DNA of 64,000 nt from an uncultured Phycisphaeraceae bacterium (GCA_964511575.1 CAZEFM010000005.1:6232-70231); one strand, 5' to 3'. Counted from the first letter of the stretch, positions 2,614 to 24,156 are shown. Numbers and translations: made by a program. The notes: generated from the letters alone by a model not told the origin.

Positions 2614-2667
2614 TGAAAATGTTATTGAAACGTTCTCCTTGGGGTTGTAGCATTCACGAGGTGCTCC

Positions 2668-2916
2668 ATGGACCGTGAAGCGATTCTCCAGCATATTTCG
2701 ATCGATCCGGCCGTGTGCTTTGGGAAAGCATGCGTGCGTGGTCGCCGTATTTGGGTGTCGCTTGTACTGGACCTGTTGGCAACGGGCATGTCAATCGAGG
2801 ATGTGAAGCGCGAATATGACCTGACCGACGCGCAGATTCGCGCATGCCTTGCATACGGGGCGGAGATGGCGCGGGGTCGACATCTGGACATTCCCATGGA
2901 GCGTCGTGCATCGTGA
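2668..2916 (+). CDS. DUF433-family small protein (antitoxin-like partner of DUF5615)
   Basis: 82 aa. 'DPAVCFGKACVRGRRIWVSLVLDLLATGMSIEDVKREYDLTDAQIRACLAYG' matches the DUF433 pattern (GKPCIRGTRI...VL..LA.G.S.EEI...Y.L...I.AAL.YA). Its stop overlaps the next gene's start (GTGA at 2913-2916). Confidence 0.8.
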   Translation: MDREAILQHISIDPAVCFGKACVRGRRIWVSLVLDLLATGMSIEDVKREYDLTDAQIRACLAYGAEMARGRHLDIPMERRAS

Positions 2917-3305
2917 GCACACGCATCAAATTGGATGAGAATCTTGGCGCTTCTCTCGCGTCGCTGTTTCGGGATGCGGGACACGACGTGGAGACCGTCA
3001 AGAGCGAAGGGCTGCTCGGTGCCGCGGATCGCGACCTCATCGAGATATGTCGTCAGGAAGACCGCTGTCTCGTCACGCTGGACATGGATTTCGCGAACCC
3101 GCTGGTTTTTGACCCGCGTCGGTATGCGGGCATCGCGGTGCTGCGCGTTCGGCCCGGTTGCCGTTGGGAGGATCTGGTGCTTTTGGCACAGACGTTGATT
3201 CGCTTCCTCGCCACCACGCCGGTGCGTGGTCACCTATGGGTTGTTCAACCCGGCCGATTGAGGGAGTACTCGTCTGAGGATGACGACGGCTTTCAGGAGC
3301 TGTGA
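2913..3305 (+). CDS. DUF5615 (Mut7-C/PIN-like) protein, toxin-like partner of DUF433
   Basis: The GTG start at 2913 overlaps the upstream stop. 'IKLDENLGASLASLFRDAGHDVETVKSEGLLGAADRDLIEICRQEDRCLVTLDMDF' matches the DUF5615 layout (LDENL...L...GHDV......L.GA.D..I...A..E.R.LVT.D.DF). Confidence 0.75.
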   Translation: MSTRIKLDENLGASLASLFRDAGHDVETVKSEGLLGAADRDLIEICRQEDRCLVTLDMDFANPLVFDPRRYAGIAVLRVRPGCRWEDLVLLAQTLIRFLATTPVRGHLWVVQPGRLREYSSEDDDGFQEL

Positions 3306-3371
3306 TTTCCCCCTGTCCCGCTTTCGCCTATCATTCGGCGGTTTCCTGCGTTTCAAGGATGAGTGTTTCGC

Positions 3372-6300
3372 ATGACCGCAACGCCTGTATCGTCTGCTGA
3401 TCTGTCGGTTCCGCCGGTTCGGGTTTCCCGGGTGGAGGTGCGCCCGCGTGCCGGGGAGCCGGACCCTGTCGCCGCCGCGGCGCTCGCCGATGCCCGTCAG
3501 CATTTCGGGTCAGTGACGGCGGTCCGTTCGGCACGGGTGTACCTCATCGAGGGGCCGCTGTCCGACGCCGCGGTCGAGCGCATCGCGCAGGAGCTGCTTG
3601 CCGACCCGGTGAGCCAGACCGCCACCGTGGGGGTGGCACCCGCCGGTGATGGCGTTGCCCTTGTCGAGGTGCACTACAAGCCGGGCGTGATGGATCCGGT
3701 GGCCCAATCGACGCAGGACGCCATCGTCGAAATGCTCGAGGGCATCGCCGCGGATCAGGTGTCGGTGCGCACCGGCGTGCGGTACGACCTGGAAGGCGTC
3801 GGCGCGTCGATCGAGCAGCTCGAAGCGTTTGCCGCACGATACCTCGCCAACCCGGTGATTCAGGAAATTCACGTTACGCCCTTTACGCCTGATGCTTTTC
3901 CGCACGGGCATGAGCAGGCGTTTCGGTTGACGCACGTGCCGTTGCGCGATCTGGATGATGAAGCGCTGATGAAGCTGTCGCGCGAAGCGCACCTGTTTCT
4001 CAGCCGGGATGAGATGGTCGCCATCCGCGATTACTACCGCGCGCTCCCCGATGGACGGGAGCCGACGGACATCGAACTGGAAACGCTCGCCCAGACATGG
4101 AGCGAGCATTGCGTTCACAAGACGCTCAAGGCGACGATCCGCTATCGCGATGAGGCGGCCGATGCCTCAGCTTCCGGTACATCTTGGCACGATCGCCCGG
4201 GACATGAGGTGCACGATGATGGCTCGGTGACGATCCACAACCTGCTCAAGAACACGATCGCCGCCGCCACGCGGAAGCTGATGTCCGAGCCGCCGCACAA
4301 CGAATGGTGTGTCAGCGTGTTCGTCGACAACGCGGGCATTGTGCGTTTTGACGATGAGGATGCGGTGTGCATCAAGGTGGAAACGCACAACCACCCCAGC
4401 GCGATCGAGCCGTACGGCGGCGCGGCGACGGGGATCGGCGGGTGCATCCGTGACGTGATGGGCACGGGCCTTTCCGCCAAGCCGATCGCCAACACCGATG
4501 TGTTCGCCGTGGCGTGGAAAGAGCAGCAGGAATCCGGTGACACGGACGCCGCACTGCCCAAGGGGGTCATCCACCCGCGACGGATTCTGCAGCAGGTCGT
4601 GGCCGGTGTGCGCGACTACGGCAACCGCATGGGCATTCCCACCGTGAACGGCGCGGTCGTCTTCCACGACAACTATCTGGGTAACCCGCTTGTTTTCGCC
4701 GGGTGCATCGGCATTATCCCGCTCGATAAATGTTTCGGTGCGCCCAAGCCGGGCGACCGCATCATCGCGTTGGGCGGCGCGACCGGTCGCGATGGCATCC
4801 ACGGCGCAACATTTTCCTCAGCCGAACTCACCGACACGCACGCCGATGAGTTTTCCCATGCCGTGCAGATCGGCAACGCCATCACGCAGAAGAAGACGAT
4901 GGACGTCATTCTGCAGGCACGCGATTACGTGCATGAGGACGGCGTGTCCCAGCCGCTCTTCCACGCGATCACCGACTGTGGTGCGGGTGGCTTCTCCAGT
5001 GCGGTGGGCGAGATGGGCGAAAAGCTCGGTGCGCGCGTGACGCTCGAAAAAGCCCCGCTCAAGTACGCCGGCCTGACCTATACGGAAGTGTGGATCTCCG
5101 AAGCTCAGGAGCGCATGGTGCTCGCCGTTCCGCCTGAGCATATCGACAAGCTCGGGGCGTTGTGTGCCGCCGAAGACGTGGCGATGTGTGATCTGGGCGA
5201 GTTCGGCTGCACAACGGAATCCGGCGAACCGCAGCTCGTGCTCACGTGGCACGGCAACGAGGTGGGGCGACTGTCCATGCATCTGCTGCACGAAGGCATC
5301 CCCATGCCGACGCGCGATGCCACGTGGAAGCCGGGCGAAGCGCCAGCCGACACGCTGCGCCGTTCGCAGGCGACCAGGAACGACCGTTCGCTGTCCGACA
5401 CATTGCACACGCTGCTGGCGCACCCGAACATCGCATCCAAACACTGGATCATCCGCCAGTACGACCATGAAGTGCAGGGCGGGTCGGTAATCAAGCCGCT
5501 CGTCGGGCCGGAGCAGGATGGCCCCAGCGATGCGGCGGTGATTCGGCCGAAGCTCTCGAGCAATCGCGGCATCGCGGTGGGTTGCGGGCTGCAGCCGTAC
5601 CTCAGCGAAACCGCCGCCGACGCGGGGCTTGCCCTGGATGGCGATTCGTATTGGATGGCACTGGCGGGCATCGATGAAGCGGTGCGCAACGTGGTGTGCG
5701 TCGGGGCTGACCCGCAGCGAATTGCAATTCTCGATAACTTCTGCTGGCCCAAGTGCGACGACCCGCGACAACTCGGCGCGCTGGTGCGTGCCGCGGAGGC
5801 GTGCTACGACGGGGCGCTTGCGTATCGCACGCCGTTCGTTTCGGGCAAGGACTCGCTGAGCAACCAGTTCACAACGGAAGATGGCCGCATCATCGCGATT
5901 CCACAGACGCTGTTGATTACCGCGCTGGGGATTGTGCCCGATGTGCTGCGCAGCCGAACGATGGACGCCAAGGCCGCGGGCAACGTGCTGCTGCTCGTGG
6001 GTGAGACGACATCGGCAACGGGTGGTTCGCACCTGCGCAGCGTTGGCATCGGCGCGGGCGATCCGTTCGTGCCGCGCGTTGACCTCGTCCAGGGCCCCGC
6101 CAATGCCCGGGCGGTGGCGGACCTCATCGCCGCGGGACTCGTGCGGTCGGCACACGACTGCTCGGACGGCGGCGTTCTCGTGGCGGCGGCGGAAATGGCC
6201 TTCGCCGGCCGCGTGGGGCTCGACGTCGAACTCGACGGCGTGCCCACGGCGGCCGCGCTCGATCACACCGTCGCCGCGTTCGCCGAAACGCCCAGCCGCT

Positions 6301-6494
6301 ATCTGCTGGAAGTCGCGCCGGGTGATCTGGACGCCGTTGTTCGCAAGCTGCGCGACGCCAACGTTCGCTTCGGCCAGATCGGCAGGTTCGCCGACCACGA
6401 TCGGCTCACCGTCCGCACCGCCAGCGCGGGAAGGATTCTGGACGAATCCCTCGACGCCCTGCGCCAAAGCTGGCTCGGCACGCTCGACTGGTAA
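3372..6494 (+). CDS. purL: phosphoribosylformylglycinamidine synthase, PurS-PurS-PurL fusion
   Basis: About 1040 aa. The PurL core carries 'LAQTWSEHCVHKT', 'VETHNHPSAIEPYGGAATGIGG', 'GGATGRDGIHGATFSS', 'AITDCGAGGFSSAVGEM'. It is preceded by two PurS-like repeats ('VEVRPRAGEPDPVAAA...LADPV' and 'VEVHYKPGVMDPVAQS...LANPVIQEIHV'). Start is ATG 3372 or GTG 3363. Confidence 0.9.
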   Translation: MTATPVSSADLSVPPVRVSRVEVRPRAGEPDPVAAAALADARQHFGSVTAVRSARVYLIEGPLSDAAVERIAQELLADPVSQTATVGVAPAGDGVALVEVHYKPGVMDPVAQSTQDAIVEMLEGIAADQVSVRTGVRYDLEGVGASIEQLEAFAARYLANPVIQEIHVTPFTPDAFPHGHEQAFRLTHVPLRDLDDEALMKLSREAHLFLSRDEMVAIRDYYRALPDGREPTDIELETLAQTWSEHCVHKTLKATIRYRDEAADASASGTSWHDRPGHEVHDDGSVTIHNLLKNTIAAATRKLMSEPPHNEWCVSVFVDNAGIVRFDDEDAVCIKVETHNHPSAIEPYGGAATGIGGCIRDVMGTGLSAKPIANTDVFAVAWKEQQESGDTDAALPKGVIHPRRILQQVVAGVRDYGNRMGIPTVNGAVVFHDNYLGNPLVFAGCIGIIPLDKCFGAPKPGDRIIALGGATGRDGIHGATFSSAELTDTHADEFSHAVQIGNAITQKKTMDVILQARDYVHEDGVSQPLFHAITDCGAGGFSSAVGEMGEKLGARVTLEKAPLKYAGLTYTEVWISEAQERMVLAVPPEHIDKLGALCAAEDVAMCDLGEFGCTTESGEPQLVLTWHGNEVGRLSMHLLHEGIPMPTRDATWKPGEAPADTLRRSQATRNDRSLSDTLHTLLAHPNIASKHWIIRQYDHEVQGGSVIKPLVGPEQDGPSDAAVIRPKLSSNRGIAVGCGLQPYLSETAADAGLALDGDSYWMALAGIDEAVRNVVCVGADPQRIAILDNFCWPKCDDPRQLGALVRAAEACYDGALAYRTPFVSGKDSLSNQFTTEDGRIIAIPQTLLITALGIVPDVLRSRTMDAKAAGNVLLLVGETTSATGGSHLRSVGIGAGDPFVPRVDLVQGPANARAVADLIAAGLVRSAHDCSDGGVLVAAAEMAFAGRVGLDVELDGVPTAAALDHTVAAFAETPSRYLLEVAPGDLDAVVRKLRDANVRFGQIGRFADHDRLTVRTASAGRILDESLDALRQSWLGTLDW

Positions 6495-6839: not shown

Positions 6840-6918
6840 GATCTGTCTCCCGTCGCAAGGTTCCCCGAACGGGTGCAATCCGCGTGCCCGATGCCGCCCC
6901 GCGATCCGCCACGCTTCC

Positions 6919-6924
6919 TATAAT
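6919..6924 (+). promoter_or_regulatory. perfect -10 hexamer TATAAT, 7 nt upstream of the polA ATG (possible leaderless transcript)
   Basis: TATAAT at 6919-6924, spacer CCTCCTC, ATG at 6932. There is no Shine-Dalgarno and I see no good -35. Confidence 0.3.
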
Positions 6925-6931
6925 CCTCCTC

Positions 6932-9793
6932 ATGGCTGCACCCAACGCTCCGGATAACACGCTCTACCTCATCGACGGCCACGCGCAGATCTTCCGCGCC
7001 TACTACGCCATCCGCACGCCGATGACCAGCCCCGTCACTGGCGAGCCCACCGGCGCGGTCTTCGCCTTCACCGGCATGATGCTCAAGCTGTTCGAGCAGT
7101 TCCATCCCAAGTACGTCGTGATGGCGATTGACACCGGCGGCAAAACCCACCGCGATGAACTCTACGAACATTACAAAGCCACCCGCGAAGCCACCCCCGA
7201 CGATTTCGCGCCCCAGGTCGAACGCATCCTCGAAATCACCCGCCTTTTCGGCGTGCCCATCTTCGGCAAGGAAGGCGCGGAAGCCGATGACATCATCGCC
7301 ACCATCACCCGCGAGATCCTCGAGGACCCGCGCTACAACGATGTGCGTATCCGCATCGTCTCCAAGGACAAGGATCTGGAGCAACTGCTCAGCGATCGCG
7401 TGACGATGTTCGACATCCACACCGACACGACGATCGATGTCGCCAAACTCGCTGAAACCAAGGGTGTGCGGCCTGATCAGGTCGTCGACATGCTCACCCT
7501 CATGGGCGACACGGTGGATAACATCCCCGGCGCGGCAGGCATCGGCCCCAAGACCGCGGCGATGCTCATCCAGCAGTTCGGCACGATTGAAAACATTTAC
7601 GCCAACATCGATCAGATCAAAGGCAAACGCCGGGAAAACCTCGAAGCATTTCGCGAGCAGTGGCCGCGTTCGCGTGAGTTGATCAAACTCAAGTTCGACG
7701 TCGACATCGACTTTGATCTGGACAAGGCGCGCATCGGCGCGATCGATGCCACCGCGTTGCGGCGCATCTTCACCGATCTGGGCTTTCGTCGGCACGTGCG
7801 TGATCTGGACAAGCTGCTTGAGCCGGCTGCACAGCAGCAGGAGACGGCTGTGAGCGCAAGCGCCGCCACGGGTGCCGCCGGTGGGTTTGTGGGGGGTCTT
7901 TTCGACAGTCACGCCGCGCTCGCCGACCGCGCCATTGAGCAGGCCGCCGCCGCGGGGCTCACCACCGCCAGCGACTGCGACTACCGCGCCATCACCACAC
8001 AGGCGGAACTCGATGAGCTTCGCGACACGCTTGCCCGGCAGAAGATGTTCAGCTTCGACACCGAAACCATCGGGCTGGGGCACGACAAGGAACTGTGCGG
8101 CCTGAGCTTCGCGTGGGAAAAAGGCTGCGGCGTGTACGTGCCCATCTGCTCGCCCGATCCCAAAGCGCACCTCGACAAGAAGGCTGTGCTCGAAACGCTG
8201 CGCCCGGTGCTTGAAGATCCGAACGTCGAAAAGTGCGGGCACAACCTCAAGTACGACCTGCTCGTGCTTCGTCATGCCGGAGTCAACGTGACCGGCGTGC
8301 GATTCGACACCATGATTGCCTCGCATCTCGTCGGTTCGCCCAGCCACAGTCTGGACACGTTGGCGCGGTCGCTGCTTAAGCATGAGGTGATCTCGATCAG
8401 CAGGCTCATCGGCGAGCGCGGCCGCGGGTTGAAACAGAAGACGATGGACCAGGTGGAGCTTGACGCCATCGCGCCCTATGCCGCCGAAGATGCGGACATG
8501 GCGCTGCGGTTGTGCGAGACGTTCACGCCGCAGCTCAAGGCGATGGGGCTTGAGCATCTGGCGCGCGAGGTGGAGATGCCGCTCGTCGAAGTGCTTGCCG
8601 ACATGGAGTTCAACGGCATCCGCGTCGACCCCGACGAACTGGAGCACCAGAAGAATCAACTCGTCAAACGCATCGATGAACTGCGTGACCTCATCTATGA
8701 GAAAGCGGGTGGGCCGTTCAACATCGATTCGCCGCGACAACTGGGTGAAGTGCTCTTCACCAAACTGCAGTTGCCGGTCATCAAGAAAACCAAGACCGGC
8801 GCATCGACCGATATCGAGGTGCTCGAAGCGCTGGCGGAGCTTGATGACCTCACCCCCGAGCAGGCGGCGGCACCCAGACTCATCGTCGAGTATCGTCAGC
8901 TCACCAAGCTGGTGAACACGTATCTGGAGAACCTGCGCGAGTCGATTCACAAGCGCGATGGTCGCGTGCATGCCACGTTTCATCAGACCGGCGCGGCGAC
9001 GGGTCGGCTTTCCTCCAGTGGGCCGAACCTTCAGAACATTCCGATCCGCACCGAACTGGGTCGGCAGATTCGCAAGGCGTTTGTTGCGGAGCCGGGCCAC
9101 GTGCTGATTTCCGCGGACTATTCGCAGATCGAGCTGCGCATGCTGGCGCATCTCAGTGGCGATGCTGCGCTGCATGAAGCGTTCGCGAGCGATCAGGACA
9201 TTCACGCCGCCGTGGCCGCGCGGGTCTTTCACATCGATCCCGATGCCGTCACCGCTGAACAGCGGGTGCACGCCAAAACGATCAACTTCGGCATCATTTA
9301 CGGGGTGACGCCGTTCGGTTTGGCGCGGCGTATTGAAGGTTTGGATTTGGAAGGCGCCAAGACGCTCATCGCCGACTACCGCAAGCGGTTCAGCGGGATC
9401 GATGCGTTCCTCAAGCGGTGCATCGATCAGGCGATTCAGGAAGGTTACGTTACGACGATCCTCGGCCGCCGCCGCGACATTCCGCAGATCACCTCACGCA
9501 ACCCCAACACACGCAGCCTCGGCGAACGGCTGGCGATCAACACCGTTGTGCAGGGCAGCGCCGCCGACCTCATCAAGCAGGCGATGGTCAACCTGCATCG
9601 CCGCATCCTGCGTGAGAACCTGCCGATGAAGCTGCTGTTGCAGATTCACGACGAACTGGTGCTCGAATCGCCCGAAAGCGAAGCCACCCGCTGCGCCGCC
9701 ATCGTCCGCGAGGAAATGGAATCGGCCATGCAACTGGACATCCCCCTCAAAGTCGAACTGGGCACCGGCCCCGACTGGCTCAACGCGAAGTAG
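6932..9793 (+). CDS. polA: DNA polymerase I
   Basis: 5'-nuclease N-terminus ('LYLIDGHAQIFRAYYA', 'ADDIIAT'), 3'-5' exo region ('FSFDTETIGL', 'KCGHNLKYDLLVL') and pol domain ('SADYSQIELRMLAH', 'RVHAKTINFGIIYG', 'LLLQIHDELVLE'). An alternative upstream start exists at 6884. Confidence 0.95.
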   Translation: MAAPNAPDNTLYLIDGHAQIFRAYYAIRTPMTSPVTGEPTGAVFAFTGMMLKLFEQFHPKYVVMAIDTGGKTHRDELYEHYKATREATPDDFAPQVERILEITRLFGVPIFGKEGAEADDIIATITREILEDPRYNDVRIRIVSKDKDLEQLLSDRVTMFDIHTDTTIDVAKLAETKGVRPDQVVDMLTLMGDTVDNIPGAAGIGPKTAAMLIQQFGTIENIYANIDQIKGKRRENLEAFREQWPRSRELIKLKFDVDIDFDLDKARIGAIDATALRRIFTDLGFRRHVRDLDKLLEPAAQQQETAVSASAATGAAGGFVGGLFDSHAALADRAIEQAAAAGLTTASDCDYRAITTQAELDELRDTLARQKMFSFDTETIGLGHDKELCGLSFAWEKGCGVYVPICSPDPKAHLDKKAVLETLRPVLEDPNVEKCGHNLKYDLLVLRHAGVNVTGVRFDTMIASHLVGSPSHSLDTLARSLLKHEVISISRLIGERGRGLKQKTMDQVELDAIAPYAAEDADMALRLCETFTPQLKAMGLEHLAREVEMPLVEVLADMEFNGIRVDPDELEHQKNQLVKRIDELRDLIYEKAGGPFNIDSPRQLGEVLFTKLQLPVIKKTKTGASTDIEVLEALAELDDLTPEQAAAPRLIVEYRQLTKLVNTYLENLRESIHKRDGRVHATFHQTGAATGRLSSSGPNLQNIPIRTELGRQIRKAFVAEPGHVLISADYSQIELRMLAHLSGDAALHEAFASDQDIHAAVAARVFHIDPDAVTAEQRVHAKTINFGIIYGVTPFGLARRIEGLDLEGAKTLIADYRKRFSGIDAFLKRCIDQAIQEGYVTTILGRRRDIPQITSRNPNTRSLGERLAINTVVQGSAADLIKQAMVNLHRRILRENLPMKLLLQIHDELVLESPESEATRCAAIVREEMESAMQLDIPLKVELGTGPDWLNAK

Positions 9794-10241
9794 GAAATTT
9801 CGCGACACGAGCGACGAGGCGCCACACGTCATGCGCGCTCAAATGGCGGTTCGTAGCGCGATTGAACTGTTCGACTACGCGATCAAACTCTGGTGTGTAC
9901 GGAAGACGATCACGCTGTCCCACGGTCCCCGCACTTTGCGCAATGAGGTCGAACAGCAATTCTGTTTCTGATTCCGAAAGTACTATCGGCATCCGATCTG
10001 ACCGGCCCAACGAAGGCATGCGGCCGGCTTTACGCAGGTTCAGGACGCGATGAAAAAGGTCTGCGTACTCGCGTTGATCACCGATTTCGCGTTGTCGCCG
10101 TACGAGTTCGTCGAACGCGTCGGTATAGGGAAGATCGTCAATCGGTCGGCCGAGTTCGTACACAGTCTCAACCAGTCGCTGATCCTCGCGACTCAACGCG
10201 GGCGCTTCGTGGAAAAATCCTTGGTTTGCTTCACTGATCAT
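9780..10241 (-). CDS. hypothetical protein with internal tandem duplication (LPYT-x-x-FD motif twice); third gene of the FRG cassette
   Basis: 153-aa ORF. Its ATG overlaps the FRG gene stop (ATGA at 10238-10241). Two roughly 70-aa repeats each contain 'LS.E...L' and 'LPYT[DP].FD..V'. Its 3' end overlaps the polA 3' end by 14 nt (convergent). I recognise no family. Confidence 0.6.
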   Translation of the reverse strand: MISEANQGFFHEAPALSREDQRLVETVYELGRPIDDLPYTDAFDELVRRQREIGDQREYADLFHRVLNLRKAGRMPSLGRSDRMPIVLSESETELLFDLIAQSAGTVGQRDRLPYTPEFDRVVEQFNRATNRHLSAHDVWRLVARVAKFPTSR

Positions 10242-10918
10242 GACAATACCCGCCTTTCAGCCGTTCTCGCAGCGGCATCCAAATCACGAAACAAACTTCT
10301 GGCGTTGATTTTCATCTCGTCGAGGTCCGACAATGCGGTCGATCTTTCCGTCGCCGGTATGTCGAAACGGTTGAGGGCTGATCCGAGGAGCGACTCTACG
10401 GTGGCTTCTATGGTATCAACCCGCAGCATCACGCTACGCTGTTCGAATGCTCGAGTATTGTATTGCTGGACTTCATCAGTCTCCAGAATCTCAATGGCAT
10501 CGAGACTAGCCTGCTGAAACCGATCACGATCGAGAACCCAAATCGTTACCTCGCCTCCGCTTTGCCGTGCCTGCTCGAATGCGAAGTAAGCAGCAATGTA
10601 TGGCGATTCCGTCCAATCCATTATCCGAGTGGGAAGTCCGTGATGGCGTGCCACATACTCCCAATGGAGATCGGCAAGGGGCCCTCGCCAGCGGCGGGTC
10701 AATCCCAATGCCTCATGCCTGAACTCCCGAAGCAACTCAGTCAGTAACTGATTACGTACATCGTCATTCGAAAATCGACGGACCCGGTCGAGCGTGGTTT
10801 CTAGCTTCCAATCAGCGCTTGAGTGACCGCGAAAGATCAGTTGCCGCCGACGCTCACTGGTAAGGACCGCATACTCAGTCAAACGTGTTTTGAACTCTGC
10901 CCAATCCCGGAGCTTCAA
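10238..10918 (-). CDS. FRG-domain protein (PF08867-type, function unknown)
   Basis: 226 aa with a TTG start preceded by a GGGGGAG Shine-Dalgarno. Signature segments are 'LIFRGHSSADWKLETTLDR', 'ARHHGLPTRIMDWTESPYIAAYFAF' and 'NTRAFEQRSVML' (the FRG-domain 'N.R..aQ.G.F' block). Confidence 0.85.
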   Translation of the reverse strand: MKLRDWAEFKTRLTEYAVLTSERRRQLIFRGHSSADWKLETTLDRVRRFSNDDVRNQLLTELLREFRHEALGLTRRWRGPLADLHWEYVARHHGLPTRIMDWTESPYIAAYFAFEQARQSGGEVTIWVLDRDRFQQASLDAIEILETDEVQQYNTRAFEQRSVMLRVDTIEATVESLLGSALNRFDIPATERSTALSDLDEMKINARSLFRDLDAAARTAERRVLS

Positions 10919-10939
10919 CGTTGTACTCCCCCTAAGATG

Positions 10940-11155
10940 TCAGATGGATCGTCGGAAGTCGCTCAGCCATCGCCGAACATCTGTTTCAACGTTCTCATGG
11001 TCTAACGTATCCCCTCGCTCGATCTGTTGCAGCGCGTGTTCGATTCTTCGGCGAACGGCGACATGATACCGGATGCGATCCAGCGTGACATTATCAGGGA
11101 GGCGCGCTATCATCGCCAGAATCTGTTGTTTTGGGCTACTCATGGAGAGCCTCAT
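10940..11155 (-). CDS. small antitoxin-like protein (addiction-module-component-like); first gene of the FRG cassette
   Basis: 71 aa (or 67 aa from ATG 11143, which has a GAGG Shine-Dalgarno). 'QQILAMIARLPDNVTLDRIRYHVAVRRRIEHALQQIERGDTLDHENVETDVRRWL' has the layout of small type II antitoxin-like proteins. It starts 5 nt after the ispG stop. The rest of the 224-aa track ORF is an alternative frame inside ispG and was discarded. Confidence 0.55.
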   Translation of the reverse strand: MRLSMSSPKQQILAMIARLPDNVTLDRIRYHVAVRRRIEHALQQIERGDTLDHENVETDVRRWLSDFRRSI

Positions 11156-11160
11156 GGATA

Positions 11161-12420
11161 TCACTTGCTGATCGTCAGCGGGGTGATCTTTTCGACCTGG
11201 CCGGCGGCGATTTTGTCGAAGCCGCTGCCGAGTTTGCCGATGGGGTCGGGGGGGAGGATTTCGACGACTTTTTCGCCGAGTTTCGCTTCGCCGCGTTTGA
11301 CCCGCTCCTGGAACTTCTTGCACTCGGCGAGCAGGGCGTCGAGGATCTCCTCTTCGGGCACGTTGGCGACCTTCTGTCCCTGCACGTAGATGATGCCGCG
11401 GCGGTCGCCGGCGAAGATCGCCACGTCCGCGCCTTCGGCTTCGCCCGGGCCGTTCACGATGCACCCCATGACCGCGACCTTGATGGGCAGCTCGATTTCC
11501 TCGCGCAGCTTCTGCCGCACCTGCTGGGTCAGCGTGAAGAGGTCGACCTGAATGCGGCCGCAGGTCGGGCAGGCGATCAGCTCCGCGCCGACGCGGGCTC
11601 GCAGCCCGAGGCAATAGAGCATTTCCAGCGCATCCTCGACCTCGTACACCGGGTCGTTGGCGTAGCTGATGCGCACGGTGTCGCCGATGCCCGAGGCGAG
11701 CAGATGGCCCAGCGGCACCACGCTGCGGATCGTGCCGGTTTCCTTCGGCCCGGCGTGGGTGACGCCCAGGTGCAGCGGGTAATCGAACCGCTTGGAGATT
11801 TCGGTGTACGCATCGATGACCAGCGTCGGGTCGATCGACTTGGCGCTGATGACGATGTCGTGGAAGTCGCGTTCGTGAAAGATCTCCAGGTATTCCTCGA
11901 GCTTGGAGATCATGATGGCGAGCATGTGGCCGTGCTTGTGCTCGCTGAACACGCCGCCGAGTTCCTTCATGCGTTTCTGCTTGTCCTTGCGTTCAACGAT
12001 GGAGCCTTCGTTGACGCCGACGCGGATGGGGATGGCGCGTTCCTTGCACGCGTCGATGACCTTGAGCACCTGTTGGCGGTCGGAGATGTTGCCGGGGTTG
12101 AGGCGGATCTTGTGGACGCCGGCCTCGATCGCTTCCAGGGCACGCTGGAAGTGAAAGTGGACATCCGCGACGATGGGCACCTTCACCTGCGGGAGGATGT
12201 GGCGCAGGGCTTCGGTGTCCTTGCGTTCGGGGACGGCGACGCGCACGAGGTCCGCACCGGCGGCGGCGAGCTTGTTGATCTCGGCGACACAGGTGTCCAC
12301 ATCGTACGTGTAGCCGGCCGTCATCGTCTGCACCGCGACGGGGGCGTCCCCGCCGATGCGAACGATGCCGTGCTGCTGGTCACCGACTGTTACCTGGCGT
12401 GTTTTTCGTCGTGCGATCAT
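11161..12420 (-). CDS. ispG: 4-hydroxy-3-methylbut-2-en-1-yl diphosphate synthase
   Basis: 419 aa. Contains 'VRIGGDAPVAVQTMT', 'LVRVAVP', 'VPIVADVHF', 'HKIRLNPGNI', 'IRVGVNEGSI' and 'CPTCGR...MGCIVNGPGE', typical of GcpE/IspG. Confidence 0.95.
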   Translation of the reverse strand: MIARRKTRQVTVGDQQHGIVRIGGDAPVAVQTMTAGYTYDVDTCVAEINKLAAAGADLVRVAVPERKDTEALRHILPQVKVPIVADVHFHFQRALEAIEAGVHKIRLNPGNISDRQQVLKVIDACKERAIPIRVGVNEGSIVERKDKQKRMKELGGVFSEHKHGHMLAIMISKLEEYLEIFHERDFHDIVISAKSIDPTLVIDAYTEISKRFDYPLHLGVTHAGPKETGTIRSVVPLGHLLASGIGDTVRISYANDPVYEVEDALEMLYCLGLRARVGAELIACPTCGRIQVDLFTLTQQVRQKLREEIELPIKVAVMGCIVNGPGEAEGADVAIFAGDRRGIIYVQGQKVANVPEEEILDALLAECKKFQERVKRGEAKLGEKVVEILPPDPIGKLGSGFDKIAAGQVEKITPLTISK

Positions 12421-22931: not shown

Positions 22932-23204
22932 GGTTTCCGTCAGAAATGAGCAACCACCCATTGCTCCCAAATGGCCCAGAAGCACGCCCCCTACCCCTAA
23001 CGCCCGGGAGGGCTGTCGCGGGCGTTACAACCGCTCCACGACCTTGATTCCGCATCTATTTAAGGATAAAATTAGGAATCATGCTCCGCTTTGGAGGGGA
23101 CAGACCAATTCGATTGCGGACAGCGGATTTGTTTCGCCTCACGCTTCCCGCCCCTTGCACACTCACCCCGTGGCCCTCGGCCTTTGGCCCTTCCAAATGT
23201 CGCC

Positions 23205-23222
23205 TTTGTCGTGTTTGTCGTG
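23205..23222. repeat. perfect tandem repeat TTTGTCGTG x2
   Basis: TTTGTCGTG occurs at 23205-23213 and 23214-23222, in the long MMPL/ECF intergenic region. Confidence 0.7.
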
Positions 23223-23314
23223 GGGGTGACATCGCCAAAAAACGCCGGAAACGTTGAAATGAAAGGAGATTACGTTCACGCCGCCCGGGTAGACCCCCAG
23301 GGGGGGTGACATCG
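23222..23314. repeat. 13-nt direct repeat GGGGGTGACATCG (two copies, 80 nt apart)
   Basis: Copies lie at 23222-23234 and 23302-23314. Confidence 0.7.
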
Positions 23315-23359
23315 GGCAAAGGCTGGGGCAAGAGGCCGGAGCACGAATGCCAGAGGAGA

Positions 23360-23387
23360 GATGTCGGAGGACGGATGCCGGAGGACG
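23360..23387. repeat. 14-nt tandem repeat GATG[T/C]CGGAGGACG x2
   Basis: GATGTCGGAGGACG at 23360-23373 is followed immediately by GATGCCGGAGGACG at 23374-23387. Confidence 0.7.
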
Positions 23388-23592
23388 CAGGATAAGACGC
23401 TTTACGTCCGGTCAATCGGCAATTGGCAACTGGCATTTCTTCGGAATTTCCTGCAACCTCGTTACGCTGGTGCGTGTAACCATGGATGTGACAGCGCTGC
23501 TGCGGCAGAAAACTGTGGGGTCGAGCCTTTCCGTGCGGACGAGAGCGGCACAGGCGGTCAATCCGAACATTCCCGGCCGGCGACATAACGCA

Positions 23593-24156
23593 ATGGGTGT
23601 GGATGATGCCGAATTGGCGCGGCGTGTGGCTCAAAACGATCGTGAGGCCGCAGCGGCGCTCGTCACGCGCTATCAGGCGTCCCTGCGAACCTTCCTCGGA
23701 CGCATCTGCACCTGTCAGGAGGCCGCCGACGACCTGGCGCAGGAAACCTTCATCCGCATGCTGCGATACGCCCATCGCTACGACGGGCGCTATCCGATGA
23801 AGACCTGGCTCTTCACCATCGCCCGACGGCTGCTCATCAACCACCTGCGCGACTCCGGCCGCATGCACCTCGGCGATGGTTTCGACGCGCAACCATCCGC
23901 CCACGCCCGTCCCGATGAACTGGCCAGCCGAAACGACCAGCAGCACTGGACGCGCGGCATGTTGCGACAGGCGATGGCCGAACTGCCCGAAGCGCAGCGT
24001 CAGGTGCTGATGCTCTTTTATCATCAGGATCAGTCGATCGACGAGATCGCCCGGACGATGCAGATGCCCCATGGCACAGTCAAAAGCCATCTGCACCGGG
24101 CCCGTGCCGCGCTGCGGACGTTGCTTGCCCCCCAACGGGAGGCGATGGAACCATGA
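23593..24156 (+). CDS. ECF-type RNA polymerase sigma-70 family factor
   Basis: Region 2 ('DLAQETFIRMLRY...WLFTIARRLLINHLR') and region 4 ('LPEAQRQVLMLFYHQDQSIDEIARTMQMPHGTVKSHLHRARAALR'). ATG 23593 gives 187 aa; ATG 23482 is an alternative. Confidence 0.85.
   Translation: MGVDDAELARRVAQNDREAAAALVTRYQASLRTFLGRICTCQEAADDLAQETFIRMLRYAHRYDGRYPMKTWLFTIARRLLINHLRDSGRMHLGDGFDAQPSAHARPDELASRNDQQHWTRGMLRQAMAELPEAQRQVLMLFYHQDQSIDEIARTMQMPHGTVKSHLHRARAALRTLLAPQREAMEP

What the first reader, a model, noticed from the sequence alone, without database searches (positions are those of the whole stretch)
9780..11155. Three-gene FRG-domain cassette (antitoxin-like small gene / FRG protein / duplicated unknown protein): candidate undescribed TA- or defence-type module
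Seen in sequence: three minus-strand ORFs are packed with almost no spacing. A 71-aa ORF (10940-11155) starts 5 nt after the ispG stop. A 21-nt gap containing a GGGGGAG Shine-Dalgarno follows. Next is a 226-aa ORF (10238-10918, TTG start), then an ATGA start/stop overlap into a 153-aa ORF (9780-10241). The 226-aa protein carries the FRG-domain signature (LIFRGHSSADWKLETTLDR ... [25 protein letters not shown] ... NTRAFEQRSVML). Established knowledge: as far as I know, the FRG domain (Pfam PF08867) has no assigned biochemical function. The 71-aa protein has the layout of small type II antitoxin / addiction-module components ('...IARLPDNVTLDRIRY...' helix, then '...GDTLDHENVETDVRRWL'). No RelE/ParE/PIN-type toxin follows it; the FRG gene sits in the toxin position. 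I cannot name a family for the 153-aa protein. Inference: a small upstream gene, translational coupling, foreign composition and insertion between two essential genes together look like a toxin-antitoxin or abortive-infection style module. I cannot match this trio to any named system.
Basis: partly seen in the sequence, partly recalled or inferred. Interest (0 to 1): 0.75.

Follow-up and report, generated by a model that had tools for sequence, protein, structure and literature searches.

The report
FRG enzyme with DDLPYT-repeat partner gene
This is a fast-evolving two-gene unit found in Phycisphaerae bacteria, made of a predicted NAD-using toxin-like enzyme (FRG) and an undescribed helical partner protein; the third small gene is a stray antitoxin-type gene that no related copy carries, so the proposed three-gene cassette is only partly real.

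Summary
The trio, however, is not a conserved unit.

- **Conserved pair:** FRG is followed by a DDLPYT-repeat protein in all 18 members of this FRG clade examined, and in none of 76 more distant FRG loci. The pair sits behind a different housekeeping gene in different genomes. Its GC is lower than the flanks. It evolves much faster than its neighbour (FRG 44-49% identity against ispG 81-86%). The FRG tree mirrors the partner type.
- **FRG is not uncharacterised:** it matches PADLOC's defence candidate PDC-S15 (E=4e-48). The literature places it in the ADP-ribosyltransferase superfamily as a predicted NADase effector. My model's best fold matches are ART toxins.
- **The partner is not FRG-specific:** its domain has no Pfam family and no fold match, and in other Phycisphaerae it is fused to argininosuccinate lyase, an alpha/beta-hydrolase and a glyoxalase domain.
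- **The 71-aa gene** belongs to a family found upstream of RelE/ParE toxins and is absent from every other FRG locus.

Best reading: an effector plus cognate regulator, with an orphan antitoxin gene inserted later. This is a new variant of a known candidate kind.

The parts
10238..10918 (-). FRG-domain protein, 226 aa, TTG start. Predicted ADP-ribosyltransferase-fold effector that uses NAD+.
   Evidence: Pfam PF08867 E=6.4e-24. PADLOC PDC-S15 model PDLC04937 E=3.8e-48 over residues 2-223. AlphaFold pLDDT 94, pTM 0.90. Foldseek PDB top hits are ART toxins: TreTu 8s2n_B prob 0.96, then cholera, pertussis, CARDS, Tpt1, Arr and DarT. Invariant residues in the clade alignment: F29 R30 G31, R91 H92 H93, D101, S105 P106, R156, Q160.
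9780..10241 (-). DDLPYT-repeat protein, 153 aa. Conserved downstream partner of this FRG clade. Its start overlaps the FRG stop (ATGA).
   Evidence: 71 homologues, none with a Pfam domain in this region. Invariant DDLPY and RDxL motifs. AlphaFold pLDDT 91.7, pTM 0.83, all-helical. No significant PDB or BFVD fold match. Found directly downstream of FRG in 18 of 18 clade members.
10002..10193 (-). Repeat 1 of the DDLPYT protein (about residues 17-80): helices 18-30, 41-52 and 59-71, the DDLPYT loop and the basic LRKAGRMPSLGR tail.
   Evidence: This unit alone makes up the 78-89-aa partners in L161, L162, L163, L165, L172 and L173.
9798..9980 (-). Repeat 2 of the DDLPYT protein (about residues 88-148): the RDRLPYT loop and a C-terminal helix ending ...VARVAK. 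The family normally ends at this K.
10919..10939 (-). 21-nt spacer holding the GGGGGAG Shine-Dalgarno sequence for FRG. It lies between the small gene's TGA and the FRG TTG, which are in the same frame.
   Evidence: read directly from the sequence
10940..11155 (-). Small antitoxin-type gene (71 aa from the ATG at 11155; more likely 67 aa from the ATG at 11143). Not a conserved part of the FRG module; probably an orphan antitoxin gene of the kind that pairs with RelE/ParE.
   Evidence: 393 relatives at E<=1e-3, mostly 60-80 aa. Family consensus LPDDxTxEDIxYHLYVxxKIxxGLxxxxxGxxxxHEEVxxxxxxWL. The family profile hits small genes overlapping RelE/ParE toxin genes on Leptospira (E=2.8e-19) and E. 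coli (E=8e-7) plasmids, and a relative does the same in Cohnella. Weak RelB/ParD similarity. Absent from all other FRG loci.
11161..12420 (-). ispG (GcpE), the upstream housekeeping gene. No terminator-like site separates it from the cassette on this strand, so co-transcription is likely.
   Evidence: ispG lies directly upstream of FRG in L001, L007 and L171 as well, at 81-86% identity.
6884..9793 (+). polA, convergent. Its last 14 nt overlap the end of the DDLPYT gene. Context only.

Best explanation
The functional unit is a two-gene module specific to Phycisphaerae, not a three-gene one. An FRG-domain protein with an ADP-ribosyltransferase fold acts as the effector, either hydrolysing NAD+ or transferring ADP-ribose. 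The DDLPYT-repeat protein, translationally coupled directly downstream, acts as its cognate regulator. It most likely binds FRG to hold it inactive, or to connect it to a cellular hub that DDLPYT domains recognise, in the way an antitoxin, immunity protein or adaptor would. The gene order is toxin first, as in DarT-DarG. The module was inherited at the 3' end of ispG in one Phycisphaeraceae lineage and is probably read through from ispG. The 71-aa gene is a later insertion of an orphan antitoxin gene from a family that normally pairs with RelE/ParE toxins, and it is not required by the module.

Shown: the anatomy, the conservation of the pair, its relocation between genomes, its rapid divergence, the ART-like fold, the family membership of the small gene, and the absence of that gene from related loci.

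Inferred: FRG's enzymatic activity, its toxicity, a direct FRG-DDLPYT interaction, and any role in phage defence.
For: **Pairing.** A DDLPYT gene lies directly downstream of FRG in 18 of 18 clade members: the window, L001, L002, L007, L051, L081-L084, L161-L166 and L171-L173. It is present in none of 76 FRG loci at 37% identity or less.

**Co-diversification.** The FRG tree splits into the same groups as single-repeat and double-repeat partners. In the partner tree, 15 of the 17 fetched FRG-linked DDLPYT proteins form one cluster apart from the enzyme-fused ones; L051 and the window's own copy fall elsewhere.

**Relocation and composition.** The upstream gene differs between loci: ispG, an aminotransferase, a TPP enzyme, DUF1501, HSP20, 6PGD and aconitase. 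Module GC is 3-12 points below the flanks in 11 of 11 loci, and GC3 is 0.55 against 0.73-0.87.

**Rapid evolution.** FRG is 44-49% and the partner 47-49% identical where the adjacent ispG is 81-86% identical.

**Effector nature.** FRG matches PDC-S15. Its fold matches are ART toxins. The literature classes it as an ART-superfamily predicted NADase and antiviral effector (PMC9503650; PMC12522546). Another FRG clade is coupled to a P-loop NTPase, as is typical of conflict-system effectors.

**Small gene.**
Against: - No experiment exists for any FRG protein.
- The DDLPYT domain is mostly found without FRG (76 of the 80 loci fetched) and is fused to housekeeping enzymes such as ArgH. That is not what is expected of a dedicated antitoxin.
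- Other FRG clades have no small partner, so FRG proteins are not necessarily toxic on their own.
- None of ten loci, the window included, lies in a recognisable defence island.
- The ART fold matches are individually weak (best E=0.017, TM 0.3-0.5). The invariant polar residue at the expected catalytic position is Q160, not the canonical E.
- The small gene has the same low GC as the module (0.537), so it could have arrived together with it.
- The trees are neighbour-joining without bootstrap support.
Confidence: 0.5

Rival explanations
1. A physiological regulatory system rather than a conflict system. DDLPYT would be a lineage-wide docking or regulatory domain carried by ArgH, a hydrolase, a glyoxalase-type enzyme and others. 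FRG would be an ART that modifies DDLPYT domains, or is directed by its free-standing DDLPYT paralogue to the hub they bind, and so tunes metabolism.
For: The DDLPYT domain is widespread in Phycisphaerae (316 loci). It is fused through long flexible linkers to housekeeping enzymes. The same invariant motifs occur in the free and the fused forms. The FRG modules sit among housekeeping genes, not defence genes.
Against: FRG accompanies only a small minority of DDLPYT loci (4 of 80). The module is patchy, low in GC, relocates between genomes and evolves fast. These are marks of accessory conflict genes, not of core regulation. FRG-linked partners mostly form their own clade.
Confidence: 0.2
2. 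One reading: a genuine three-component module in which the 71-aa protein is the antitoxin for FRG, with the 153-aa protein as a third, accessory component.
For: The spacing is tight, with an SD sequence in a 21-nt gap and the same strand throughout. The small gene belongs to an antitoxin-type family. It has the same low GC as FRG. No RelE/ParE gene follows it.
Against: No relative of the small gene occurs in any of the 17 other FRG-DDLPYT loci or in the 76 distant FRG loci. In the three other ispG-linked loci the ispG-FRG gap is too short to hold it (L001 and L007; a 15-nt gap in L171). All three annotated plasmid relatives pair with RelE/ParE toxins.
Confidence: 0.1
3. The DDLPYT gene is an autonomous small element that tends to land at, or fuse to, the 3' ends of unrelated genes. 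On this view FRG is simply one of many genes it follows, and there is no functional coupling.
For: DDLPYT modules follow or are fused to many unrelated genes: ArgH, an alpha/beta-hydrolase, VOC, a PD40 propeller, ThuA, AP_endonuc_2, a phosphorylase and a response regulator.
Against: The 18 of 18 association, the co-phylogeny with FRG and the movement of the pair as a unit argue for coupling. The domain has no nuclease or recombinase, and there are no flanking repeats.
Confidence: 0.08

Closest known systems
PADLOC phage-defence candidate PDC-S15 (single-gene FRG-domain proteins)
   Same: The FRG protein matches 14 PDC-S15 models. The best is PDLC04937, E=3.8e-48, over nearly the full length. 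Same domain and similar size.
   Different: PDC-S15 is defined as a single gene. This clade always carries a DDLPYT partner, whereas distant FRG clades do not. I found no experimental validation of PDC-S15 in the papers searched.
FRG clade of the ADP-ribosyltransferase superfamily (Aravind group; PMC9503650, PMC12522546)
   Same: Same Pfam domain. My model's top fold matches are ARTs, which agrees with the published assignment as a predicted NADase and antiviral effector.
   Different: The published work, as far as I could read it, does not describe a DDLPYT partner. The original description (J Bacteriol 2020, PMC7685563) was not available to me.
DarT-DarG and other ART-toxin TA systems (ParT-ParS, and RES-Xre/MbcTA)
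   Same: An ART-fold enzyme paired with a small, adjacent, co-transcribed gene. The toxin-first gene order is as in DarTG. DarT appears among the weak fold matches (7yk3_C). This comparison rests mainly on my own knowledge of these systems.
   Different: The partner is not a macrodomain, Xre or ParS-type protein. It is a new helical repeat domain that is also fused to housekeeping enzymes. Toxicity and neutralisation are untested.
RelB/ParD-type antitoxins of RelE/ParE toxins (relevant to the 71-aa gene only)
   Same: Size, position of relatives overlapping RelE/ParE toxin genes, and a shared C-terminal motif GLxxxxxGxxxxxEEV with RelB (9g12_C, E=0.027; NF050811 in 4 of 50 relatives).
   Different: The window protein itself hits no curated antitoxin model. 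No RelE/ParE gene follows it.
Conflict systems pairing an NTPase with an effector
   Same: In another FRG clade, a conserved P-loop NTPase of about 530 aa lies directly upstream (12 of about 65 loci). This shows that FRG serves as a partner-regulated effector.
   Different: No NTPase is present in the window module.

Membership tests
Pfam FRG domain (PF08867) | Match to the family HMM above the gathering score | tested here: met
   85.1 bits against a cutoff of 25, E=6.4e-24, residues 26-119
PADLOC PDC-S15 | Match to PDC-S15 HMMs | tested here: met
   PDLC04937 E=3.8e-48 over residues 2-223, plus 13 further PDC-S15 models
PADLOC PDC-S15 | Single-gene system with no obligatory partner | tested here: not met
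   18 of 18 members of this clade have a DDLPYT gene directly downstream
PADLOC PDC-S15 | Enrichment next to known defence genes (the basis of a defence candidate) | tested here: not met
   No PADLOC hits among 10 neighbouring window proteins. Neighbours are housekeeping genes here and in 9 related loci.
ADP-ribosyltransferase superfamily | ART fold | tested here: inconclusive
   The Foldseek PDB top hits are almost all ARTs, but with weak scores (best E=0.017, prob 0.96, TM 0.31/0.49). No sequence-level PDB hit. The published assignment exists (PMC9503650).
ADP-ribosyltransferase superfamily | Canonical catalytic triad (R-S-E or H-Y-E) and NAD+-dependent activity | tested here: inconclusive
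   R30 and S105 are invariant, but the invariant polar residue before the relevant strand is Q160, and E159 is variable. I could not superpose the model on an ART. Activity cannot be tested here.
Type II toxin-antitoxin module (FRG + DDLPYT) | Two small adjacent co-oriented genes, translationally coupled and moving together | tested here: met
   ATGA overlap. Overlaps or gaps of up to 16 nt in relatives. Different genomic contexts between loci.
Type II toxin-antitoxin module (FRG + DDLPYT) | Antitoxin family dedicated to its toxin | tested here: not met
   The DDLPYT domain occurs without FRG in 76 of 80 loci and is fused to ArgH, an alpha/beta-hydrolase and VOC
Type II toxin-antitoxin module (FRG + DDLPYT) | Toxin is growth-inhibitory and is neutralised by direct binding of the antitoxin | not testable with these tools
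   Needs expression experiments or complex modelling
RelB/ParD-type antitoxin (71-aa gene) | Match to a curated antitoxin model | tested here: not met
   The window protein hits no NCBIfam or Pfam antitoxin model. Only 4 of 50 relatives hit NF050811 weakly.
RelB/ParD-type antitoxin (71-aa gene) | Family members lie immediately upstream of a RelE/ParE toxin gene | tested here: met
   Leptospira, E. coli and Cohnella plasmid relatives all overlap an annotated RelE/ParE toxin gene. Profile E-values 2.8e-19 and 8e-7.
RelB/ParD-type antitoxin (71-aa gene) | A cognate RelE/ParE toxin gene is adjacent in this window | tested here: not met
   FRG starts 21 nt after its stop, and no RelE/ParE-like ORF is present

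The most novel reading that the evidence does not exclude
The DDLPYT repeat is a previously unrecognised docking domain of Phycisphaerae, and it is itself the target of FRG-type ADP-ribosyltransferases or a mimic of that target. On this reading the free-standing DDLPYT protein encoded after FRG acts as a decoy immunity protein, protecting the cell's own DDLPYT-tagged enzymes (ArgH, a hydrolase, a glyoxalase-type enzyme) until infection or stress releases FRG. That would be an antitoxin that works by mimicking the target, tied to a lineage-wide system of enzyme tagging.
Probability: 0.1. Interest if true: 0.8.

Novelty: new variant of a known kind. Interest (0 to 1): 0.45.

Why it matters
FRG proteins are widespread defence candidates with no experimental data. 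This clade offers a compact two-gene version in which a cognate partner can be tested directly for neutralisation or activation, and that would give a handle on what FRG enzymes do. Separately, the DDLPYT repeat is an undescribed domain that models confidently, has no fold match, and is present in hundreds of Phycisphaerae genomes. It is tethered to argininosuccinate lyase and other enzymes. Learning what it binds could reveal a lineage-specific way of organising or regulating enzymes. The finding also shows how an orphan antitoxin gene next to an unrelated toxin-like gene can look like a three-gene system.

Tried and rejected
- **Three-gene cassette as a conserved unit: rejected.** No relative of the small gene occurs in any related locus.
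- **Word-based homologue search for the 71-aa protein:** found nothing. The exhaustive HMMER search was needed.
- **Back-translation scan of viral contigs with the 71-aa family alignment:** failed because no stretch was conserved enough.
- **Contig-length coincidences between FRG and DDLPYT hits, used as a shortcut for linkage:** the 19,701-nt case (P0083 and P0159) was false, since the contigs come from different samples. I did not rely on the others.
- **Fold identification of the DDLPYT protein:** no significant match in the PDB or BFVD. There were only faint hints of tandem three-helix, HTH-like proteins (Myb, paired domain, transcriptional regulators at E>0.1), too weak to claim DNA binding. 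The sequence profile against the PDB gave one spurious lectin hit.
- **DDLPYT in viral contigs:** two weak hits only.
- **Conserved small partner in distant FRG clades:** none downstream. A P-loop NTPase lies upstream in a subset.
- **Mobile-element boundaries, terminators or meaningful repeats around the cassette:** none.
- **Defence-island context:** none.
- **The original FRG description (PMC7685563):** could not be read.
- **Exact-sequence look-up of the window's FRG protein in the contig index:** returned nothing.


Full report
**1. Observation**

The three minus-strand ORFs exist exactly as described.
- The ispG stop is at 11163-11161. Five bases later an ATG at 11155 opens a 71-aa ORF that ends at 10940.
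- A 21-nt spacer containing GGGGGAG precedes the TTG at 10918, which opens the 226-aa ORF (10238-10918).
- The stop of that ORF overlaps the ATG of the 153-aa ORF (ATGA; 9780-10241).
- The region is compositionally foreign. GC is 0.52-0.57 against 0.60-0.68 in the flanks. GC3 is 0.55-0.56 against 0.73-0.87 for neighbouring genes.

Small refinements:
- The ATG at 11143, with GAGG six bases upstream, is the likelier start of the small gene (67 aa), and homologues begin there.
- The small gene's stop and the FRG start are in the same frame.
- The 153-aa ORF overlaps the convergent polA end by 14 nt.
- No terminator-like site separates ispG from the cassette on the minus strand, and no repeats mark element boundaries.

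**2. The FRG protein**

It matches Pfam FRG (E=6.4e-24). Over nearly its whole length it also matches PADLOC's phage-defence candidate PDC-S15 (PDLC04937, E=3.8e-48), so it already belongs to a named candidate family.

The statement that FRG has no assigned biochemical function is out of date. Iyer et al. 2022 (PMC9503650) describe Frg as a clade of the ADP-ribosyltransferase (ART) superfamily, reported as a potential antiviral effector that might act as a NADase. A 2025 survey lists FRG among ART-like families (PMC12522546). I found no experimental work on any FRG protein.

An AlphaFold model built on 41 clade members is very confident (pLDDT 94, pTM 0.90). Its PDB fold matches are almost exclusively ARTs: Rhs toxin TreTu (prob 0.96), cholera, pertussis and CARDS toxins, Tpt1/KptA, Arr, DarT and pierisin. 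The scores are individually weak (best E=0.017, TM 0.3-0.5).

Invariant residues are F29-R30-G31, R91-H92-H93, D101, S105-P106, R156 and Q160. The invariant Q where canonical ARTs have a catalytic E is compatible with a NADase-type activity, but that is inference.

**3. The 153-aa protein**

It has no match in Pfam, NCBIfam, PADLOC or PHROGs. It does belong to a clear family (71 homologues) built from two copies of a unit of about 60 aa with invariant DDLPY / RDxL(P)Y motifs.
- The model is confident (pLDDT 91.7, pTM 0.83) and all-helical, with two three-helix units.
- It has no significant match in the PDB or in BFVD. I call it the DDLPYT repeat.

A genome scan found 316 loci encoding it, almost all in Phycisphaerae or Planctomycetota. 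Among the best 80 loci:
- 4 have an FRG gene upstream.
- 23 carry the module fused in frame, through long low-complexity linkers, to argininosuccinate lyase.
- 17 carry it fused to an alpha/beta-hydrolase, and 16 have it just downstream of that hydrolase in another frame.
- The rest follow a PD40 propeller, ThuA, a sugar-phosphate isomerase-like TIM barrel, a glycogen phosphorylase, a response regulator and others.

A further group is fused to a VOC/glyoxalase domain and sits among housekeeping genes. The domain is therefore not a private partner of FRG.

**4. Is FRG + DDLPYT a unit?**

Yes, for this FRG clade. Every member I could examine has a DDLPYT gene directly downstream, 18 of 18 including the window:
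- L001, L002, L007 and L051.
- L081-L084.
- L161-L166.
- L171-L173.

The partner is either a double repeat (143-153 aa) or a single repeat (78-89 aa). None of 76 more distant FRG loci (37% identity or less) has one.

Further support:
- The FRG tree splits into the same two groups as the partner type.
- In a tree of repeat 1, 15 of the 17 fetched FRG-linked partners form one cluster apart from the enzyme-fused forms. L051 and the window's own copy fall elsewhere. Both trees are neighbour-joining without bootstrap.
- The pair sits behind a different housekeeping gene in different genomes: ispG in four, and elsewhere an aminotransferase, a TPP enzyme, DUF1501, HSP20, 6PGD and aconitase.
- Its GC is lower than the flanks in all 11 loci tested.
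- In the four ispG-linked genomes, ispG is 81-86% identical while FRG is 44-49% and the partner 47-49% identical. The module therefore evolves far faster than its neighbour, and the ispG-linked modules cluster together.

These are typical features of accessory conflict genes. Against a classical defence reading, none of the ten loci lies near recognisable defence genes.

**5. The 71-aa gene**

A word-based search found nothing. An exhaustive HMMER search found 393 relatives, mostly 60-80 aa, with the consensus LPDDxTxEDIxYHLYVxxKIxxGLxxxxxGxxxxHEEVxxxxxxWL.
- A profile of this family hits small genes that overlap annotated RelE/ParE toxin genes on a Leptospira plasmid (E=2.8e-19) and an E. coli plasmid (E=8e-7).
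- A family member hits the equivalent gene in Cohnella.
- There is faint similarity to the C-terminal segment of RelB/ParD antitoxins.

But the family's usual partner is RelE/ParE, and no relative of this gene occurs in any of the other 17 FRG-DDLPYT loci or the 76 distant FRG loci. In the three other ispG-linked loci the ispG-FRG gap is too short to hold it (a 15-nt gap in L171). It is therefore best read as a secondary insertion of an orphan antitoxin gene. Because it shares the module's low GC, I cannot exclude co-arrival or a newly evolved functional link.

**6. Mechanism**

Best explanation (confidence about 0.5): FRG is an ART-fold effector that uses NAD+, and the DDLPYT protein is its cognate regulator. 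It would either neutralise FRG like an antitoxin (toxin-first order as in DarTG) or link FRG to whatever DDLPYT domains bind. That FRG works with different partners in different clades is supported by a conserved P-loop NTPase of about 530 aa directly upstream of FRG in 12 of about 65 distant loci.

Rivals:
- A physiological ADP-ribosylation or docking system centred on DDLPYT-tagged enzymes (0.2).
- Chance adjacency of a promiscuous small gene (0.08).

**7. Novelty and verdict**

The FRG gene is a member of a known candidate family. The obligatory FRG-DDLPYT pairing and the DDLPYT domain itself appear to be undescribed. This is a new variant of a known kind and of moderate interest. The three-gene cassette as proposed is only partly supported.

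Noticed in passing
L016:1452-3866, L031:6366-8387, L056:6462-8414, L057:6000-8378 (ArgH fusions); L003:2853-4499, L040:6774-8378, L054:6897-8417 (hydrolase fusions); P0156, P0159, L174:4001-4807 (VOC fusions): The DDLPYT-repeat domain is fused in frame, through long low-complexity linkers, to the C-terminus of argininosuccinate lyase, to the C-terminus of an alpha/beta-hydrolase, and to a VOC/glyoxalase domain in many Phycisphaerae. It has no Pfam family and no PDB or BFVD fold match. Its function is unknown.
   Followed up: partly
L085, L088, L089, L095, L097, L098, L100, L107, L109, L123, L124, L126 (ORF directly upstream of the FRG gene): A distant FRG clade is preceded by a conserved protein of about 530 aa with a Walker A motif (GKxGAGKT). 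Its only matches are weak ones to AAA_22 and PDC-M28C. This suggests a separate two-gene NTPase-FRG system.
   Followed up: partly
window 10918-10942: The small gene's TGA stop and the FRG TTG start are in the same reading frame, 21 nt apart, so stop-codon read-through would fuse the two proteins. This may be chance (one in three).
   Followed up: no
window 9780-9793: The DDLPYT gene carries a five-residue extension (FPTSR) beyond the family's invariant C-terminal ...AK, and its end overlaps the convergent polA stop region by 14 nt.
   Followed up: partly
L001:1-1843, L007:2993-5473, L171:764-3195: The ispG->FRG->DDLPYT order is conserved in three other Phycisphaeraceae genomes, while the downstream gene differs (a CitMHS transporter in L171, polA in the window). 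ispG is 81-86% identical but the module only 44-49%.
   Followed up: yes
window 23056-24135 (-) and 2622-3233 (-): Two further ORFs (359 aa and 203 aa) have lower GC3 (0.63-0.65) than their neighbours. The 359-aa one has no Pfam match. Both may also be foreign.
   Followed up: no
window 3363-6494 (+): Large FGAM synthase with PurS, linker and AIRS domains fused in one 1043-aa protein. Ordinary housekeeping context.
   Followed up: no
L161:8050-8547 and 10869-11240; L166:3963-4424: Genes of the 23S_rRNA_IVP (four-helix-bundle) family recur near FRG modules in two loci. Probably just common in these genomes.
   Followed up: no
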